Below are positions 3,001 to 9,000 of a DNA stretch of 64,000 nucleotides, one piece after another. How positions within the stretch are numbered: the stretch's first letter is position 1; the number at the start of each line of letters is the position of its first letter. The position numbers are program-made. The DNA comes from Escherichia coli (GTDB lineage Bacteria; Pseudomonadota; Gammaproteobacteria; Enterobacterales; Enterobacteriaceae). The DNA lies in assembly GCF_011045215.1 (NCBI RefSeq), contig NZ_CP049201.1, one strand, 5' to 3'.

Positions 3001-6000
3001 AAGTTTAACTTAAGGCTGGCGGGATACTTTTTACTATCAACGATAAGGTCAGGCTGAATTGGCGGGTTTTAACATCAAACATTGGTTTGCAGATGGCGCG
3101 TTTCGCACCATTATTCGCAATAGCGCCTGGTTAGGCTCCAGTAATGTCGTGAGCGCCTTGCTGGGGCTGTTGGCGCTCTCGTGTGCCGGTAAAGGGATGA
3201 CGCCCGCCATGTTTGGTGTACTGGTGATTGTGCAATCGTACGCCAAGTCGATCAGCGATTTTATTAAGTTTCAGACATGGCAGCTGGTGGTTCAGTACGG
3301 AACGCCAGCCTTGACCAACAATAATCCGCAGCAATTTCGCAATGTCGTCTCATTTTCCTTCTCGCTGGATATCGTCAGCGGCGCGGTGGCGATTGTCGGC
3401 GGCATTGCCTTACTGCCATTCCTTTCCCATTCATTAGGTCTGGATGACCAAAGCTTTTGGCTGGCGGCGCTGTATTGCACGCTCATTCCTTCAATGGCTT
3501 CCTCCACGCCGACCGGCATTCTGCGTGCGGTAGATCGCTTTGATTTGATTGCTGTACAGCAGGCGACGAAACCTTTTCTGCGCGCAGCGGGGAGCGTCGC
3601 AGCCTGGTATTTTGACTTTGGTTTTGCGGGTTTTGTTATTGCCTGGTACGCATCGAATCTGGTTGGCGGCACCATGTACTGGTGGTTTGCCGCGCGCGAA
3701 TTACGCCGCAGAAATATCCATAACGCCTTCAAATTGAATCTGTTTGAGTCTGCTCGACACATTAAAGGCGCGTGGAGTTTTGTCTGGTCAACCAACATTG
3801 CCCACTCCATCTGGTCGGCGCGTAACTCGTGCAGCACAGTGTTGGTGGGGATCGTGTTAGGACCCGCTGCCGCCGGGTTATTTAAAATCGCCATGACATT
3901 CTTCGACGCCGCCGGAACGCCAGCGGGTTTGCTGGGTAAAAGTTTTTACCCAGAGGTGATGCGTTTAGATCCGCGCACCACCAGACCGTGGTTGTTAGGC
4001 GTGAAGTCCGGTTTACTGGCGGGCGGAATCGGTATTCTGGTGGCGCTCGCGGTGTTGATCGTCGGCAAGCCGCTCATTTCGCTGGTGTTTGGCGTTAAGT
4101 ATCTCGAAGCGTATGACCTGATTCAGGTGATGCTGGGCGCAATTGTGATCTCGATGCTGGGCTTCCCTCAGGAGTCATTGCTATTGATGGCGGGAAAACA
4201 GCGCGCTTTTCTCGTGGCGCAAACCATCGCCTCAATCGGCTACATCGTATTGCTGTTCATGTTCTGTCATCTGTTTGGCGTGCTGGGAGCAGCGTTTGCT
4301 TATTTCGGCGGTCAATGTCTGGATGTGGTGCTTTCGCTAATTCCGACCTTAAAGGCATTTTTTCAGCGCCATTCCTTGCTTTATAACGCAGCCGGAGAGA
4401 AATCCTGATGATGAGAAAATATTTCCCGCTTGAGGCGAGCGAGCGTCTATTTGTTGCGATTGAAGAAGATGATGTCGTTGATGCACAGGTTAGTTTGCCG
4501 CCGACTATTGCACTAAGTTGTACCACCGAAATCATTCATGATAATTACGCGTTATGCCTGCAATTCTGGCTCAATGGCGTTAATCGTCAGGAATTACTGC
4601 GTTTAGTTCGCAAACAAGCCAAAGGCGATGAGCTGACTGCTGATGAGCGCAAACAATTTAAATACATGCGAGCGCGCTACAAGCACCTGCGTTTTGCGCA
4701 ACGGCTGTATTTAAAGAAGCATCAGGCCGGATTTTTATTCGGCAAAACGACCGTTTTTCTGGGACGTTTTCAGGACGGGTTTCGTAACGGTAAGAAAAAT
4801 ATTGTGTCGTATTACGGCAACCTGTTACGGATTTATTTAAGCTCTCCGGTCTGGTCGTTGGTGAACTATTCATTACGCCATAGCCAGTTAGAAAGCGTAA
4901 GCGGTTTTATTGCCTATCGGCAAAAGCAAATGCATGCCCTGAAAGAGATAATTGCCAAACCGCGACTAACCGGCAGGGAATTTCATGATGTGCGAAAAAT
5001 CATCAGCCAGCAGGTTTCTTATTACGACACCTTAAGATCGCTTGATCCTGAAAATAAAGAGGCGTTACAGATTTCCCGTTTCCTCGCCGCCATTAATGGC
5101 CTGATGGGGGATAAACACGACGACATGGTGGCGGATGATATGGAAAACCGCCAGTCGTATGATGCACCGGTGGCGCTGGATAGCGATATTCGCCAGCGCT
5201 TAGAGCTGCTGATTTCGCGTTTTCCGCTATAACCGGAGCAATGATGTCATCTCGTTTGATTATTGCGCTGATTATCATGCTCTTAGCCCCGGGAGTGCAG
5301 GCACACAATTTCGTCACTGGCAAAACGGTTACCCCTGTTTATATTCAGGAAGGCGGCGAGCTGCTTCTGAATAGCGACGACGAAATTCACTACCAAAAGT
5401 GGAACAGCACACAATTGGCGGGAAAAGTCCGCATTATCCAGTATATCGCCGGGCGTAAGTCAGCGAAGAAGAAGAACTCACTATTAATTAAAGCGGTTGA
5501 AGCGGCAAACTTTCCACAGGATCGTTTTCAGCCCACCACCATTGTGAACACCGATGATGCCATCTTTGGTACTGGCTATTTTGTTGTTGGCAAAATCGAA
5601 AAAAATAAACGCCGCTATCCGTGGGCGCAATTCGTTATCGACGGCAATGGACAGGGACGCGTTGCCTGGCGCTTGCCGGAGCAGAGTTCAACCATTCTGG
5701 TGCTGAATAAAGCCGGGCAAATTCAGTGGGCAAAGGACGGCAGCCTGACGCCGGAAGAGGTAGATCATGTCATTGCGCTGGCGCAGAAACTGATCAATGA
5801 ATAAAAAATTCAAAGGATTGAGGGCGTTAGTGAGATGAAGCTGGTTGAACACTACATCATGCGTGGTACGCGCCGTCTGGTGCTGATTATCGTCGGTTTT
5901 CTGATCTTTATTTTCGCCAGCTACTCCGCACAGCGTTATCTGACCGAAGCGGCAAATGGGACATTAGCACTTGATGTTGTGCTGGATATCGTTTTCTACA

Positions 6001-9000
6001 AGGTGCTGATTGCACTGGAGATGTTGTTACCTGTTGGACTGTATGTGTCAGTTGGCGTGACGCTAGGGCAGATGTATACCGACTCGGAAATTACTGCTAT
6101 CTCTGCGGCGGGGGGCAGTCCGGGACGCTTGTACAAAGCCGTTCTTTATCTGGCGATACCGCTAAGTATTTTTGTCACCCTTCTGTCGATGTATGGTCGT
6201 CCGTGGGCTTATGCGCAGATTTATCAGCTGGAGCAACAGTCACAGTCGGAACTGGATGTTCGCCAGTTGCGGGCAAAGAAATTTAACACTAACGATAACG
6301 GACGAATGATCCTTTCGCAGACGGTTGATCAGGATAATAATCGCCTGACTGACGCGCTGATTTATACTTCTACTGCCAATCGAACCCGCATTTTCCGCGC
6401 CCGTTCGGTTGATGTGGTTGACCCATCACCCGAGAAACCGACCGTTATGTTGCATAACGGCACAGCCTATCTTCTCGATCATCAGGGGCGTGACGACAAC
6501 GAACAGATCTACCGTAATCTGCAATTACATCTGAATCCGCTGGATCAAAGCCCTAACGTCAAACGCAAAGCGAAATCGGTCACGGAGCTGGCGCGCTCCG
6601 TCTTTCCAGCCGATCATGCCGAACTGCAATGGCGACAAAGCCGTGGCCTGACAGCATTGTTGATGGCGCTGCTGGCCATTTCATTAAGTCGGGTAAAACC
6701 GCGGCAAGGGCGATTTTCAACATTATTGCCACTGACGTTGCTGTTTATTGCCATTTTTTATGGCGGCGACGTCTGCCGTACGCTGGTGGCTAACGGCGCA
6801 ATTCCCCTCATTCCTGGTTTGTGGTTAGTGCCCGGACTCATGCTAATGGGCCTGCTGATGCTGGTCGCACGCGACTTCTCTTTGCTGCAGAAATTTTCCC
6901 GATGAATGTTTTCAGTCGCTATTTAATCCGTCATCTCTTTCTCGGTTTTGCCGCCGCCGCAGGGCTATTGCTGCCGCTTTTTACCACCTTCAACCTGATT
7001 AACGAACTGGATGATGTCAGCCCGGGCGGTTATCGCTGGACTCAGGCGGTGCTGGTGGTGCTAATGACCTTACCGCGCACACTGGTCGAACTTTCGCCGT
7101 TTATCGCCTTATTGGGAGGGATTGTTGGCCTGGGGCAGTTATCGAAAAACAGTGAGCTTACCGCCATTCGCAGCACGGGTTTTTCTATCTTCCGTATTGC
7201 ACTGGTGGCGCTGGTTGCCGGGATATTGTGGACTGTTTCGTTAGGCGCGATAGATGAGTGGGTAGCGTCGCCATTGCAGCAACAGGCGCTGCAAATCAAA
7301 TCGACCGCCACTGCGTTGGGGGAGGACGATGATATTACCGGCAATATGCTTTGGGCCAGGCGCGGTAATGAATTTGTAACGGTGAAATCGCTGAACGAGC
7401 AGGGCCAGCCGGTGGGCGTGGAGATATTTCATTATCGCGACGATCTCTCGCTCGAATCCTACATTTATGCACGCAGTGCCACCATTAAAGACGACAAAAT
7501 GTGGATCCTGCATGGTGTGAATCATAAAAAATGGCTTAACGGTAAAGAAACGCTGGAAACATCAGATAATCTTGCCTGGCAATCGGCCTTCACCAGTATG
7601 GATCTTGAAGAGCTATCGATGCCGGGGAATACTTTTTCTGTCCGTCAGCTTAATCATTACATCCATTATTTGCAGGAAACCGGGCAACCCAGCAGCGAAT
7701 ACCGCCTTGCACTGTGGGAAAAACTGGGGCATCCCATTTTAACCCTGGCGATGATTTTGCTGGCAGTGCCTTTTACCTTTAGTGCCCCGCGCTCGCCAGG
7801 GATGGGTAGCCGTCTCGCTGTAGGTGTCATCGTTGGCTTACTCACCTGGATCAGCTATCAAATCATGGTCAATCTGGGATTGCTATTTGCGTTGAGCGCA
7901 CCTGTTACCGCGCTCGGTTTACCGATAGCGTTTGTGCTGGTGGCGTTGAGCCTGGTGTATTGGTATGACAGACAACATTAAACCCGCCGTGGCGCAACAC
8001 CACGGCGGGCTCACATTACTGCTTCAGAGTAGCAAATGCCTGAATGATGGCATCGATTTGCTCACGACTGTGGGCAGCGTTTACGCTACAGCGCAGCAGC
8101 GTGATGCCTGCAGGCGCGGCAGGTGGCAGGATAAGATTCACATAAACGCCCAGCGAAATAAGCTCGCGCCAGATGCGTAAACCGTCCTCTTTCGAACCGA
8201 TTATTACCGGCACTACCGGGCTAATATGTGAACTTAACTCATAACCCAGTTTTTGCAGACCGTCATACAGATGGTTGGCATTATCCATCAGCTTTTGCCG
8301 CAGCTCTGGTTGTGTGGCAATAGTTCTTAACGACGAGCGCACGGTCGCAATGCAGGACGGAGAAGGAGAGGCGGTAAAAATATACGGGCGGCTGCCGTAG
8401 CGCAGCACTTCCATCGCTTCCGAACCGACAGCAAAACCGCCAATCGAGGCCAGACTTTTACTGAAGGTGCCAACGATAATATCCACATCATCTTCAACGC
8501 CTACAGCTTCAGCCAGTCCGTGCCCCGTTGCGCCTAACACGCCAAACGAATGCGCTTCATCGACAATCAAATAACCACCGAGACGACGTTTGATATCAAC
8601 AATTTCCGCCAGCGGCGCAACGTCACCGAGCATACTGTAGATGCCCTCAACGATGATAATCGCCTCTTTCGCCCGTTCACCGAGGCGAACCATGCGCCGT
8701 TCCAGATCTTTAGCATCGTTATGGCGGAAACGAATAATTTCCGCGCCACCGAGAGAACAGGCGTCATAAATACTGGCGTGGCTGTCGGCATCCAGTAACA
8801 CCACGGCGTTATGGTCGGCAAGTGCGCTGATGACGCCTAAATTAGCGGTATAACCGGTTGAAAAAACGATAGCGGTAGGGCGATTGAAAAACTCGGCAAT
8901 CTCTTTCTCTAACGCCAGGTGCGGCGCATAACTGCCGTTTGCCATACGAGAACCGGTGGTGCCGGTGCCTTGGGTCGCTAACGCTGCCTGACCTTCGGCG

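What the first reader, a model, noticed from the sequence alone, without database searches (positions are those of the whole stretch)
3059..7981. Flippase-like protein plus an LptF/LptG-like permease pair with no local ABC ATPase, adjacent to the lipid module
A seven-gene plus-strand operon (yghS, yghR, yghQ, two unknown genes, two YjgP/YjgQ-family permeases) converges on the lipid-synthesis operon and shares a bidirectional terminator with it. LptF/LptG-type permeases normally work with the LptB ATPase to extract lipopolysaccharide; a second paralogous pair beside a lipid-synthesis module suggests a dedicated export route for the product, possibly borrowing an ATPase encoded elsewhere. The two permease genes are translationally coupled (ATGA overlap at 6902-6905).
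Basis: partly seen in the sequence, partly recalled or inferred. Interest (0 to 1): 0.65.

Follow-up and report, generated by a model that had tools for sequence, protein, structure and literature searches.

The report
Second LptFG exporter in sphingolipid locus
Most E. coli strains (but not K-12) carry a second copy of the LptF/LptG lipid-extracting membrane pair and a flippase inside a sphingolipid-synthesis gene cluster, matching a sphingolipid export system just described in Caulobacter that borrows the cell's LPS-export ATPase, LptB.

Summary
Window 1510-7981 holds a tightly packed seven-gene plus-strand operon: yghS, yghR, full-length yghQ, two small genes, lptF-like and lptG-like. The ATGA overlap is at 6902-6905. 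The operon converges on spt-acp-reductase-acyl-ACP synthetase across a 34-nt gap containing a strong hairpin. Both permeases pass NCBI's curated LptF/LptG cut-offs but are only about 28% identical to E. coli's own LptF/LptG. No ABC ATPase, LptC or LptA homolog lies anywhere in the 64 kb.

The pair and the spt operon co-occur in about 75% of 5,426 complete E. coli genomes. In K-12 both are missing, with an IS5 at the junction. They remain linked in Pseudocitrobacter, in rearranged Mangrovibacter loci, and in 6 of 7 distant metagenomic relatives.

It was proposed for Caulobacter in 2024. A 2026 preprint tested it there, found that LptF2/G2 pull down LptB, and drew the E. coli UTI89 locus. So this is an untested member of a known kind.

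New leads from this work:
- LptF2 lacks the Arg212 whose loss makes LptC dispensable.
- One "unknown" gene has a CHAD fold.
- The other is a cysteine-free YtfJ-family protein with a weak thioredoxin-like match.
- The head-group genes are three P-loop kinases, unlike Caulobacter's.

The parts
644..1336 (-). yghT. A P-loop kinase-like protein (230 aa) transcribed divergently from the operon; a paralog of yghS and yghR.
   Evidence: Weak dTMP-kinase matches in NCBIfam. RefSeq annotation. Conserved next to the cluster in Pseudocitrobacter and Mangrovibacter.
1337..1509 (.). AT-rich divergent intergenic region between yghT and yghS; the probable promoter region of the seven-gene operon.
   Evidence: GC is 0.40 in 1001-1500. 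A sigma-70-like site lies at 1432-1460, but this is a consensus match only, not evidence of function.
1510..2223 (+). yghS. P-loop kinase-like protein (237 aa); first gene of the operon.
   Evidence: Homologs at 37-43% identity sit beside spt in the distant locus L014.
2255..3013 (+). yghR. P-loop kinase-like protein (252 aa).
   Evidence: only P-loop and weak thymidylate-kinase matches. No relative among solved structures by sequence.
3059..4408 (+). Full-length yghQ. A MOP/Wzx-superfamily (Polysacc_synt) membrane protein and the candidate flippase (449 aa). In K-12 it is truncated to 355 aa by an IS5-linked deletion.
   Evidence: Pfam PF01943 at 2e-8. NCBIfam MOP flippase scores 33 bits, far below its cut-off. 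K-12 truncation. An ortholog lies beside spt in L025 (31% identity, E = 1.6e-65). dN/dS is 0.03.
4408..5232 (+). The first 'unknown' gene: a soluble all-helical protein of 274 aa with a CHAD-domain fold.
5241..5804 (+). The second 'unknown' gene: a YtfJ-family periplasmic protein (187 aa; RefSeq start 5244) with a signal-peptide-like N-terminus and no cysteine.
5835..6905 (+). lptF2. An LptF-family permease (356 aa).
   Evidence: TIGR04407 at 318 bits against a cut-off of 230. 28.5% identity to K-12 LptF. Coupling-helix Glu conserved. Ala211 sits at the position of LptF Arg212. dN/dS is 0.05-0.08.
6902..7981 (+). lptG2. An LptG-family permease (359 aa) whose start overlaps the lptF2 stop (ATGA).
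   Evidence: TIGR04408 at 305 bits against a cut-off of 240. 27.8% identity to K-12 LptG. Overlap seen directly in the sequence. dN/dS is 0.05-0.06.
7983..8009 (.). GC-rich hairpin in the 34-nt gap between the convergent lptG2 and spt genes.
   Evidence: -21.9 and -30.6 kcal/mol. None of 200 shuffles folds as well.
8016..9188 (-). spt. Serine palmitoyltransferase (390 aa).
   Evidence: RefSeq annotation. The E. coli BL21 enzyme was shown to make 3-oxo-sphinganine (PMC9386255).
9188..9436 (-). acpR. The specialised acyl carrier protein (82 aa).
   Evidence: PMC9386255.
9468..10382 (-). NAD-dependent epimerase/dehydratase-family reductase (cerR-like, 304 aa).
   Evidence: Conserved in every spt locus examined.
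10379..12109 (-). aasR. Fatty acyl-AMP ligase / acyl-ACP synthetase. The RefSeq start corresponds to window 12067.
   Evidence: PMC9386255.
12472..13614 (+). yghO. The homolog of the bacterial ceramide synthase gene of these clusters (380 aa).
   Evidence: No Pfam or NCBIfam hit. A 46-64%-identical gene is found in five of the six distant spt-linked loci and in the Pseudocitrobacter and Escherichia loci. The five ceramide genes are stated to be clustered in E. coli BL21 in PMC9386255.

Best explanation
The window carries the E. coli version of a proteobacterial sphingolipid synthesis-and-export locus. The proposed mechanism has four steps.

1. Synthesis. Spt, AcpR, AasR, the CerR-like reductase and YghO build a (dihydro)ceramide at the cytoplasmic face of the inner membrane. 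The Spt/AcpR/AasR activities have been shown for the BL21 proteins. The rest is inferred from homology.

2. Head-group modification. YghT, YghS and YghR (P-loop kinase-like) probably phosphorylate the head group, possibly with the CHAD-fold protein. This step is inferred and weakly supported.

3. Flipping. YghQ, a MOP-superfamily membrane protein, flips the lipid to the periplasmic leaflet. This is inferred from family, from orthology to the flippase gene beside spt in other loci, and from its replacement by MsbA-like ABC exporters in some loci.

4. Extraction and delivery. LptF2 and LptG2 form the membrane half of an ABC extractor. Having no ATPase of their own, they dock the housekeeping LptB dimer through their conserved coupling-helix glutamates. 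The lipid is extracted and passed to the Lpt bridge for delivery to the outer membrane. This is inferred here and shown only for the Caulobacter homologs.

Because LptF2 lacks the arginine whose loss makes LptC dispensable in E. coli LptF, I predict it feeds LptA directly, without LptC.
For: Family membership:
- Both proteins pass the curated LptF and LptG cut-offs.
- Both align over their full length with solved LptF/LptG chains.
- Hydropathy shows TM clusters at both ends around a hydrophilic insert of about 155-175 residues, like K-12 LptF/LptG.
- The pair is translationally coupled.

An old paralog, not a recent duplicate:
- About 28% identity to K-12 LptF/LptG.
- Its best matches among 1.8 billion representative proteins are spt-linked genes. 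L014 scores 414 bits, L018 226 bits and L019 217 bits, against 94 bits for E. coli LptF.

Linkage to the lipid module:
- 4105, 4067 and 4054 of 5426 E. coli genomes carry the pair, the spt operon and the whole block respectively.
- K-12 lacks both, with an IS5 at the junction.
- Gene order is identical in Pseudocitrobacter, and linkage is kept despite a rearrangement in Mangrovibacter.
- Six of seven distant contexts carry spt, ACP, epimerase and AMP-ligase within 10 kb.

ATPase:
- None in the 64 kb.
- lptB is single-copy in 5425 of 5426 genomes.
- The Glu equivalent to LptF E84 / LptG E88, needed for LptB coupling (PMC5082905), is invariant in all 135 sequences aligned.

Flippase:
- PF01943 hit.
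- An ortholog lies beside spt in L025.
- MsbA-like exporters occupy that role in L014, L018 and L024.

Selection: dN/dS is 0.03-0.08.

Experiments in the literature:
- Caulobacter LptF2/G2 co-purify with each other and with LptB, and can be deleted only when the anionic sphingolipid is absent (10.64898/2026.04.12.717747).
- E. coli BL21 Spt/AcpR/AasR make 3-oxo-sphinganine (PMC9386255).
Against: - No sphingolipid has been reported from E. coli in the papers I could search.
- In PMC9386255, BL21 extracts with empty vector showed no 3-oxo-sphinganine formation although BL21 carries the locus. The locus may therefore be silent in laboratory culture.
- The locus is dispensable. About a quarter of complete E. 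coli genomes lack it, K-12 among them, and truncated or fused products of the locus occur in the protein collection, including one from Shigella.
- The E. coli cluster lacks the Caulobacter head-group genes (DAGK-type ceramide kinase, CDP-alcohol phosphotransferase, nucleotidyltransferases). The exported molecule is therefore unknown, and the toxicity logic of the Caulobacter experiments may not transfer.
- I could not retrieve the Caulobacter protein sequences, so orthology to CCNA_01214/01213 rests on the preprint's figure and on my context analysis.
- One LptF2-like relative (Methylomarinovum, L020) has no spt within 10 kb.
Confidence: 0.65

Rival explanations
1. LptF2/LptG2 are an alternative LPS extractor, for example for a modified or stress-specific LPS form. 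Their position beside the spt genes would then be only co-inheritance on one accessory island.
For: - They pass the curated 'equivalog' cut-offs of the LPS-export models, and RefSeq names them LptF and LptG.
- Several lipid A contacts are kept: LptF R33 is retained, LptG K62 becomes R, and LptG R136 becomes K.
- Within E. coli alone, co-occurrence could reflect one block being lost or kept as a unit.
Against: - Linkage to spt persists across rearrangements and across very distant taxa whose other neighbours differ.
- The LptG lysines K34, K40 and K41 that bind lipid A phosphates and core in E. coli (PMC6744409) are N, D and D here. This is not decisive, because canonical P. aeruginosa LptG also lacks them.
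- In Caulobacter the paralogs are needed only when the sphingolipid is made.
Confidence: 0.08
2. YghQ and LptF2/G2 handle some other envelope glycolipid or polymer. For example, YghQ could act as a Wzx-type flippase of an undecaprenyl-linked sugar, unrelated to the spt product.
For: - YghQ belongs to the Polysacc_synt/MOP superfamily, whose known members mostly flip lipid-linked oligosaccharides.
- RefSeq calls it 'lipopolysaccharide biosynthesis protein'.
- A K-12 yghQ deletion shifted the chlorhexidine MIC two-fold (PMC8170033), although K-12 has no spt genes.
Against: - No glycosyltransferase or sugar-nucleotide gene lies in the E. coli cluster.
- A YghQ ortholog lies directly beside spt in L025. 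The Caulobacter counterpart CC_1166 shows co-fitness with CC_1156 (LptF/G-family) and CC_1152 (PMC11324152 S1 Text).
- K-12 yghQ is a truncated remnant, so its phenotype says little.
Confidence: 0.07
3. LptF2/G2 export the sphingolipid but are powered by an ATPase other than LptB, or work as a passive extractor.
For: - No ATPase is encoded locally, so the partner is unknown in E. coli.
- Some distant loci carry a complete MsbA-like ABC protein next to spt.
Against: - The LptB-docking glutamates are invariant.
- Caulobacter LptF2/G2 pull down LptB.
- The MsbA-like proteins are fused half-transporters with their own membrane domains. They are absent from the E. coli locus, where a MOP flippase occupies that role.
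Confidence: 0.1
4. The locus is a decaying, unexpressed relic in E. coli, and the permease pair has no current function.
For: - No native SPT activity was detected in BL21 extracts.
- Deletions, truncations and gene fusions recur in E. coli and Shigella.
- About 25% of genomes lack the locus.
Against: - Intact genes of conserved length are present in 4105 genomes.
- dN/dS is 0.03-0.08 between Escherichia species for lptF2, lptG2, yghQ and the CHAD-fold gene.
- The same gene set is conserved across several Enterobacterales genera.
Confidence: 0.05

Closest known systems
Caulobacter crescentus LptF2/LptG2 (CCNA_01214/CCNA_01213 = CC_1156/CC_1155) with the candidate flippase CC_1166, in the sphingolipid locus. 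Sources: PMC11324152; preprint 10.64898/2026.04.12.717747.
   Same: - A second LptF/LptG pair sits inside the spt locus.
- No ATPase is encoded in the locus.
- A Polysacc_synt-family membrane protein is in the same cluster.
- The same five ceramide genes are present.
- The preprint's Figure 2B draws the E. coli UTI89 locus as homologous.
   Different: - E. coli has no LptC2. The preprint says LptC2 seems restricted to Caulobacter.
- The head-group genes differ completely. E. coli has three P-loop kinase paralogs, a CHAD-fold protein and a YtfJ-family protein. Caulobacter has a DAGK-type ceramide kinase, a CDP-alcohol phosphotransferase, a Tam41-like protein and nucleotidyltransferases.
- Nothing has been tested in E. 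coli.
Canonical E. coli LptB2FGC lipopolysaccharide extractor (PDB 6MHU, 6MI7, 6S8H).
   Same: - Same family and same length.
- Full-length alignment with the solved chains.
- Coupling-helix glutamates are present.
- The genes are adjacent and overlap.
   Different: - Only about 28% identity.
- LptG K34, K40 and K41 are N, D and D.
- LptF R212 is Ala.
- The pair is not next to pepA.
- It is dispensable and strain-variable.
- It is linked to spt rather than to LPS genes.
E. coli LptF R212G/S/C suppressor variants, which assemble a six-protein Lpt bridge without LptC (PMC9972910; PMC4986956).
   Same: LptF2 and all seven spt-linked or LptF2-like relatives aligned have Ala, Gly or Ser at the aligned position.
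   Different: Those are laboratory mutants of the LPS transporter that also needed LptA overexpression. Here the non-Arg residue is the natural state of a paralog, and its effect is untested.
CHAD domains, which are polyphosphate-binding helical modules (for example 6qv5 from Ricinus and PptA 6rn5).
   Different: It has no sequence-level Pfam match. It stands alone rather than fused to a CYTH domain. It is encoded in a lipid cluster. Its ligand is unknown.

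Membership tests
LptF/LptG permease family (Pfam PF03739; NCBIfam TIGR04407 / TIGR04408) | Profile score above the curated whole-protein cut-off. | tested here: met
   LptF2 scores 318 bits against a cut-off of 230. LptG2 scores 305 bits against a cut-off of 240.
LptF/LptG permease family (Pfam PF03739; NCBIfam TIGR04407 / TIGR04408) | Architecture: three TM helices, a periplasmic domain of about 150 residues, then three TM helices. | tested here: met
   Full-length alignment with solved LptF/LptG chains (residues 3-351 of 359 and 4-353 of 356). 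Hydropathy shows TM clusters at both ends around a hydrophilic insert of about 155-175 residues, like K-12 LptF/G. No 3D model of the pair itself was built.
LptF/LptG permease family (Pfam PF03739; NCBIfam TIGR04407 / TIGR04408) | Conserved coupling-helix glutamate (LptF E84, LptG E88) that engages LptB. | tested here: met
   Glu is present in LptF2, LptG2 and every relative aligned: 135 of 135 for the LptF column. Its role is documented in PMC5082905.
LptF/LptG permease family (Pfam PF03739; NCBIfam TIGR04407 / TIGR04408) | Physical and functional complex with the LptB ATPase dimer. | not testable with these tools
   Shown only for the Caulobacter homologs.
LptF/LptG permease family (Pfam PF03739; NCBIfam TIGR04407 / TIGR04408) | Lipopolysaccharide as substrate (lipid A phosphate and core contacts). 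| tested here: inconclusive
   LptF R33 is kept, LptG K62 is R and LptG R136 is K. LptG K34, K40 and K41 become N, D and D, and LptG R133 becomes L. Canonical P. aeruginosa LptG also lacks the lysines, so these positions do not discriminate.
Sphingolipid-locus LptF2/LptG2 (Caulobacter type) | Encoded within or beside the spt-acpR-cerR-aasR and cerS gene set. | tested here: met
   lptG2 ends 34 nt from the spt stop codon. The linkage is conserved in 9 Enterobacterales loci and in 6 of 7 distant loci.
Sphingolipid-locus LptF2/LptG2 (Caulobacter type) | A second pair, in addition to the housekeeping lptFG, with no ATPase gene of its own. | tested here: met
   K-12 lptF and lptG at the pepA locus are only 28% identical. 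No ABC ATPase lies in the 64 kb. lptB is single-copy.
Sphingolipid-locus LptF2/LptG2 (Caulobacter type) | Direct sequence orthology to CCNA_01214 / CCNA_01213. | not tested
The homology is asserted in Figure 2B of the preprint. L025 has a Caulobacter-like gene order.
Sphingolipid-locus LptF2/LptG2 (Caulobacter type) | Deletion tolerated only when the (anionic) sphingolipid is not made; the lipid fails to reach the outer membrane without the pair. | not testable with these tools
   This is a genetic and biochemical test.
MOP / Wzx-type flippase superfamily (YghQ) | Profile match to Polysacc_synt or a MOP family. | tested here: met
   PF01943 at 2.1e-8 and PF13440 at 2.5e-7. The NCBIfam MOP flippase equivalog scores only 33 bits against a cut-off of 273, so YghQ belongs to the superfamily but to no named subfamily.
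MOP / Wzx-type flippase superfamily (YghQ) | Twelve to fourteen transmembrane helices. | tested here: inconclusive
   A crude hydropathy scan finds six strong peaks at the threshold used. No proper topology predictor was available.
CHAD domain (the 274-aa protein) | Sequence match to Pfam CHAD (PF05235). | tested here: not met
   No Pfam hit even at E <= 10.
CHAD domain (the 274-aa protein) | CHAD helical-bundle fold. | tested here: met
Bidirectional intrinsic terminator | GC-rich hairpin followed by a U-run on both transcripts. | tested here: not met
   The hairpin is strong. The plus-strand transcript continues CUCACAUUAC, which has no U-run. The minus-strand transcript continues UUUAAUGUUGU, which is partial.

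The most novel reading that the evidence does not exclude
Three quarters of E. coli strains can make a so-far undescribed phosphorylated sphingolipid. Its head group would be built by the YghT/S/R P-loop kinases together with a CHAD-fold, phosphate-binding partner. The lipid would be exported by YghQ and then by an LptB2-LptF2-LptG2 extractor. That extractor would naturally lack the LptC-dependence arginine and so plug straight into LptA-LptDE. LPS and a sphingolipid would then compete for one ATPase and one trans-envelope bridge in the best-studied bacterium.
Probability: 0.3. Interest if true: 0.75.

Novelty: new member of a known kind. Interest (0 to 1): 0.4.

Why it matters
If the E. coli pair works as proposed, the LPS export machine of the main model organism serves two lipids through interchangeable membrane subunits sharing one ATPase.

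- This bears on how Lpt-targeting antibiotics act in clinical strains, most of which carry the locus while K-12 does not.
- It would make bacterial sphingolipid transport testable with E. coli Lpt genetics and biochemistry.
- It would flag a surface lipid of commensal and pathogenic E. coli that work on K-12 could not have seen, since K-12 lacks the locus.
- The natural Arg212 replacement in LptF2 offers a direct test of whether LptC is needed for non-LPS cargo.

Tried and rejected
1. LptG2 TM1 acidic motif (N31, D37, D38 in place of LptG K34, K40, K41) as a signature of a non-LPS substrate. Rejected as diagnostic, because canonical P. aeruginosa LptG has A, N and D at the same positions.
2. 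A genome-contig scan with LptF2 returned only 10 loci, because it relies on exact peptide patterns. That was too few for a systematic survey, so I used representative hits plus contig look-ups instead.
3. Two cluster-member runs gave almost no organism names for the distant relatives. Their taxonomy stays unknown.
4. One look-up (P0139) was not on record. Two others returned contigs too short to show context.
5. A PDB search with the LptF2 periplasmic fragment alone found nothing. The Arg212 column therefore rests on full-length pairwise and multiple alignments.
7. A PADLOC defence-system scan of the cluster gave only two marginal P-loop-region matches (yghS to Csx3 at E = 6e-4, yghR to PDC-M51B at E = 2e-4) and none for the other proteins. 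An Rfam scan of 1-14000 was negative.
8. No Pfam or NCBIfam hit was found for YghO.
9. A literature search for CHAD together with sphingolipid found no paper.
10. The K-12 papers mentioning yghQ/R/S/T concern the truncated remnant and were not informative.
11. I did not retrieve the Caulobacter sequences for a direct comparison.

Full report
WHAT IS THERE

The window is an E. coli chromosome segment, 99.5% identical to strain PapM-32-1, running pitB-yghT-yghS...yghO-glcC.

Window 1510-7981 holds seven plus-strand genes separated by 31, 45, -1, 8, 29 and -4 nt:
- yghS 1510-2223
- yghR 2255-3013
- a full-length yghQ 3059-4408
- a 274-aa hypothetical gene 4408-5232
- a YtfJ-family gene 5241-5804
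- an lptF-like gene 5835-6905
- an lptG-like gene 6902-7981

The ATGA stop/start overlap at 6902-6905 is in the sequence. A third kinase paralog, yghT (644-1336), is transcribed divergently.

The operon converges on spt (8016-9188), an ACP gene, a reductase and an acyl-AMP ligase. yghO (12472-13614) diverges from these.

The 34-nt gap between lptG2 and spt holds a hairpin of -21.9 kcal/mol (+ strand) and -30.6 kcal/mol (- strand), better than all 200 shuffles. Only the minus-strand transcript has a partial U-run after it. 'Bidirectional terminator' is therefore plausible for spt and unproven for the permease operon. No Rfam family matches in 1-14000.

THE PERMEASES

- LptF2 scores 318 bits on the curated LptF model (cut-off 230). 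LptG2 scores 305 bits on the LptG model (cut-off 240).
- Both align over their full length with solved LptF/LptG chains, at E = 1e-32 and 5e-41.
- Hydropathy shows TM clusters at both ends around a hydrophilic insert of about 155-175 residues, as for K-12 LptF/G.
- They are only 28.5% and 27.8% identical to K-12 LptF and LptG. They are old paralogs, not recent copies.
- The coupling-helix glutamates are essential for LptB coupling in E. coli (LptF E84, LptG E88; PMC5082905). They are conserved in both proteins and in all 135 LptF-family sequences I aligned.
- dN/dS against other Escherichia species is 0.05-0.08, so the genes are under purifying selection.

NO LOCAL ATPase

- tblastn with K-12 LptB, LptC and LptA finds no homolog in the 64 kb.
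- No ABC signature motif occurs in any frame.
- lptB is found in 5425 of 5426 complete E. coli genomes, with a median of one place per genome. The extra places are short matches to other ABC genes.

LINKAGE TO THE LIPID MODULE

Within E. coli:
- The permease pair is present at 80% coverage or more in 4105 of 5426 complete genomes.
- The spt operon is present in 4067, and the whole 13-kb block in 4054.
- In K-12 MG1655 an IS5 sits between a truncated yghQ (355 aa) and yghO. Everything from the 274-aa gene to the ligase is missing.

In other Enterobacterales:
- LptF2 orthologs at 65-79% identity occur in Citrobacter, Pseudocitrobacter, Hafnia, Shimwellia, Sodalis, Serratia, Erwinia, Mangrovibacter and Raoultella.
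- In Pseudocitrobacter the gene order is identical.
- In Mangrovibacter the spt operon has moved upstream of yghT onto the same strand, yet stays adjacent.

Further out, the best-scoring representatives among 1.8 billion proteins with readable contexts were examined:
- Six of seven (L014 55%, L018 38%, L019 36%, L024 37%, L025 34% and L026 37% identity) have spt, ACP, epimerase and AMP-ligase within 10 kb (identities confirmed).
- Only the Methylomarinovum locus L020 does not.
- These relatives score 181-414 bits, against 94 bits for E. coli LptF.

THE FLIPPASE

- YghQ matches Pfam Polysacc_synt (PF01943, 2e-8). This is the family reported for Caulobacter CC_1166 (PMC11324152 S1 Text).
- L025 has a 31%-identical ortholog (E = 1.6e-65) directly beside spt.
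- In L014, L018 and L024 no MOP gene is present, but an MsbA-like fused ABC exporter sits in the cluster.

Two unrelated lipid-flippase families alternating in the same loci is circumstantial support for a flipping step.

THE TWO 'UNKNOWN' GENES

The 274-aa protein:
- It has no Pfam, NCBIfam or PDB sequence match.
- A 27-sequence alignment gave an AlphaFold2 model with pLDDT 92.6.
- The AFDB50 neighbours (26-42% identity, TM about 0.95) are 'CHAD domain-containing proteins' from Sphingomonas, Acetobacter, Komagataeibacter, Gluconobacter and Zymomonas. From my own knowledge, these are sphingolipid-producing lineages.
- Its sequence-level homologs have the same Enterobacterales distribution as LptF2.

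The 187-aa protein:
- It is a YtfJ-family member (212 bits against a cut-off of 151).
- It has a signal-peptide-like N-terminus, no cysteine, and an invariant basic loop AGRxSAKKKN.

Kinases:
- YghT, YghS and YghR show only P-loop and weak dTMP-kinase similarity.
- Two homologs at 37-43% identity lie beside spt in L014.
- The Caulobacter head-group genes (DAGK-type kinase, CDP-alcohol phosphotransferase, nucleotidyltransferases, metallophosphoesterase) are present in the distant loci but absent from E. coli.

The E. coli product therefore probably has a different, possibly phosphorylated, head group. This is an inference.

A NEW DETAIL ON LptC

- Three independent phmmer alignments (to P. aeruginosa, V. 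cholerae and Shigella/E. coli LptF) and a MAFFT alignment agree. They place LptF2 Ala211 (motif NGTAY) at the conserved Arg of canonical LptF (QGTRF, DGSRY, DGTRY; E. coli R212).
- All LptF2-type sequences aligned have Ala, Gly or Ser there.
- Among 127 representatives ordered by similarity to LptF2, Arg is nearly absent from the closest 70 or so. It is the commonest residue among the more distant ones.
- In E. coli LptF, R212G/S/C are exactly the changes that let cells live without LptC, by forming an LptB2FG-LptA-LptDE bridge (PMC9972910).
- The E. coli locus has no LptC-like gene. The preprint notes that LptC2 seems confined to Caulobacter.

I therefore predict LptC-independent hand-off by LptF2. 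The jellyroll region is weakly conserved and a fragment search alone finds nothing, so this is a lead and not a result.

WHAT IS ALREADY KNOWN

- PMC9386255 showed that E. coli BL21 Spt, AcpR and AasR make 3-oxo-sphinganine, and noted that the five ceramide genes are clustered in BL21.
- PMC11324152 proposed that the Caulobacter second LptC/F/G copies plus flippase CC_1166 export phosphosphingolipids.
- The April 2026 preprint by Uchendu, Isom and Klein reports three results. lptF2, lptG2 and lptC2 could be deleted only in spt or cpgB mutants. LptF2 and LptG2 co-purify. Both pull down the sole LptB. Its Figure 2B shows the E. coli UTI89 locus.

WEAK POINTS

- No E. coli sphingolipid is reported in the papers I could search.
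- BL21 extracts with empty vector had no detectable SPT activity, so the locus may be silent in culture.
- The locus is dispensable. Truncated or fused products occur in the protein collection: YtfJ-LptF2, PitB-LptF2 and ligase-LptF2 fusions, and a truncated Shigella product.
- I could not compare directly with the Caulobacter sequences.
- The LptG TM1 charge change that first looked like a substrate signature is shared by canonical P. aeruginosa LptG, and I dropped it.

VERDICT

This is an untested E. coli member of the recently defined LptF2/LptG2 sphingolipid-export kind, with a distinct accessory and head-group gene set. Interest is moderate. The concept is no longer new, but its presence in most E. 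coli strains, the shared-LptB logic, the LptC-independence lead and the CHAD-fold partner make it a practical experimental entry point.

Noticed in passing
window 6465-6467 (LptF2 residue Ala211, motif NGTAY): LptF2 and its spt-linked relatives have Ala, Gly or Ser where canonical LptF has the conserved Arg212. R212G/S/C are the known E. coli suppressors that make LptC dispensable. This suggests the paralog works without LptC.
   Followed up: partly
window 4408-5232: The 274-aa 'hypothetical' protein has a confident CHAD-domain fold although it has no Pfam hit. Its structural neighbours come from Sphingomonas, Acetobacteraceae and Zymomonas. No paper in the library links CHAD to sphingolipids.
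   Followed up: partly
window 5241-5804: The YtfJ-family periplasmic protein has no cysteine and an invariant basic loop AGRxSAKKKN. It shows only a weak thioredoxin-like fold match, on a low-confidence model. Its role beside lptF2 is unexplained.
   Followed up: partly
L002 (K-12 MG1655) 4147-6409, versus window 4126-12500: In K-12 an IS5 (insH9) lies between a 355-aa yghQ remnant and yghO. The eight genes from the CHAD-fold gene to the acyl-AMP ligase are missing, so K-12 'yghQ' is a truncated gene.
   Followed up: yes
L008 and L009 (Mangrovibacter) 1-12144: The spt operon lies upstream of yghT on the same strand as yghS-lptG2, instead of convergent downstream. The locus is rearranged but still contiguous.
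   Followed up: yes
L014 1682-3406; L018 434-2128; L024 13532-15301; L025 430-1677: Distant spt/LptF2G2 loci carry either an MsbA-like fused ABC exporter or a YghQ-like MOP protein. This looks like non-orthologous replacement of the flippase.
   Followed up: partly
L014 57-1707: Two YghS/R/T-like P-loop kinase genes (37-43% identity) sit beside spt in a locus that also has a DAGK-type kinase. The P-loop kinases are therefore not confined to Enterobacterales clusters.
   Followed up: no
protein clusters P0003-P0005, P0014-P0020 and P0105: Variant E. coli and Shigella products of the locus exist. There is a YtfJ-LptF2 read-through fusion (553 aa), a PitB-LptF2 fusion (450 aa; the largest cluster seen on 34 contigs), AMP-ligase-LptF2 fusions (556 aa) and a 238-aa truncated Shigella form. 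These suggest recurrent decay of the locus in some lineages.
   Followed up: no
E. coli complete-genome collection: One copy of the block lies on a plasmid record, and two genomes carry versions only 80-90% identical. Neither was examined.
   Followed up: no
window 12110-12471 and 1337-1509: Both divergent promoter regions are markedly AT-rich (GC 0.35 and 0.40, against about 0.52 around them). This would fit silencing or tight regulation of the locus, in line with the lack of native SPT activity in BL21 extracts.
   Followed up: no
window 12472-13614 (yghO): YghO has no Pfam or NCBIfam match, and K-12 annotation calls it a putative DNA-binding regulator. Yet a 46-64%-identical gene is found in five of the six distant spt-linked loci and in the Pseudocitrobacter and Escherichia loci. 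This fits the ceramide synthase role assigned in the literature.
   Followed up: partly
window about 14600-64000 (L023): The rest of the window is ordinary E. coli core and accessory sequence. It includes glcDEFGBA, sslE with the gsp type II secretion cluster, tRNA-Phe, and speC through to metK. It contains no transporter ATPase that could pair with LptF2/G2.
   Followed up: partly
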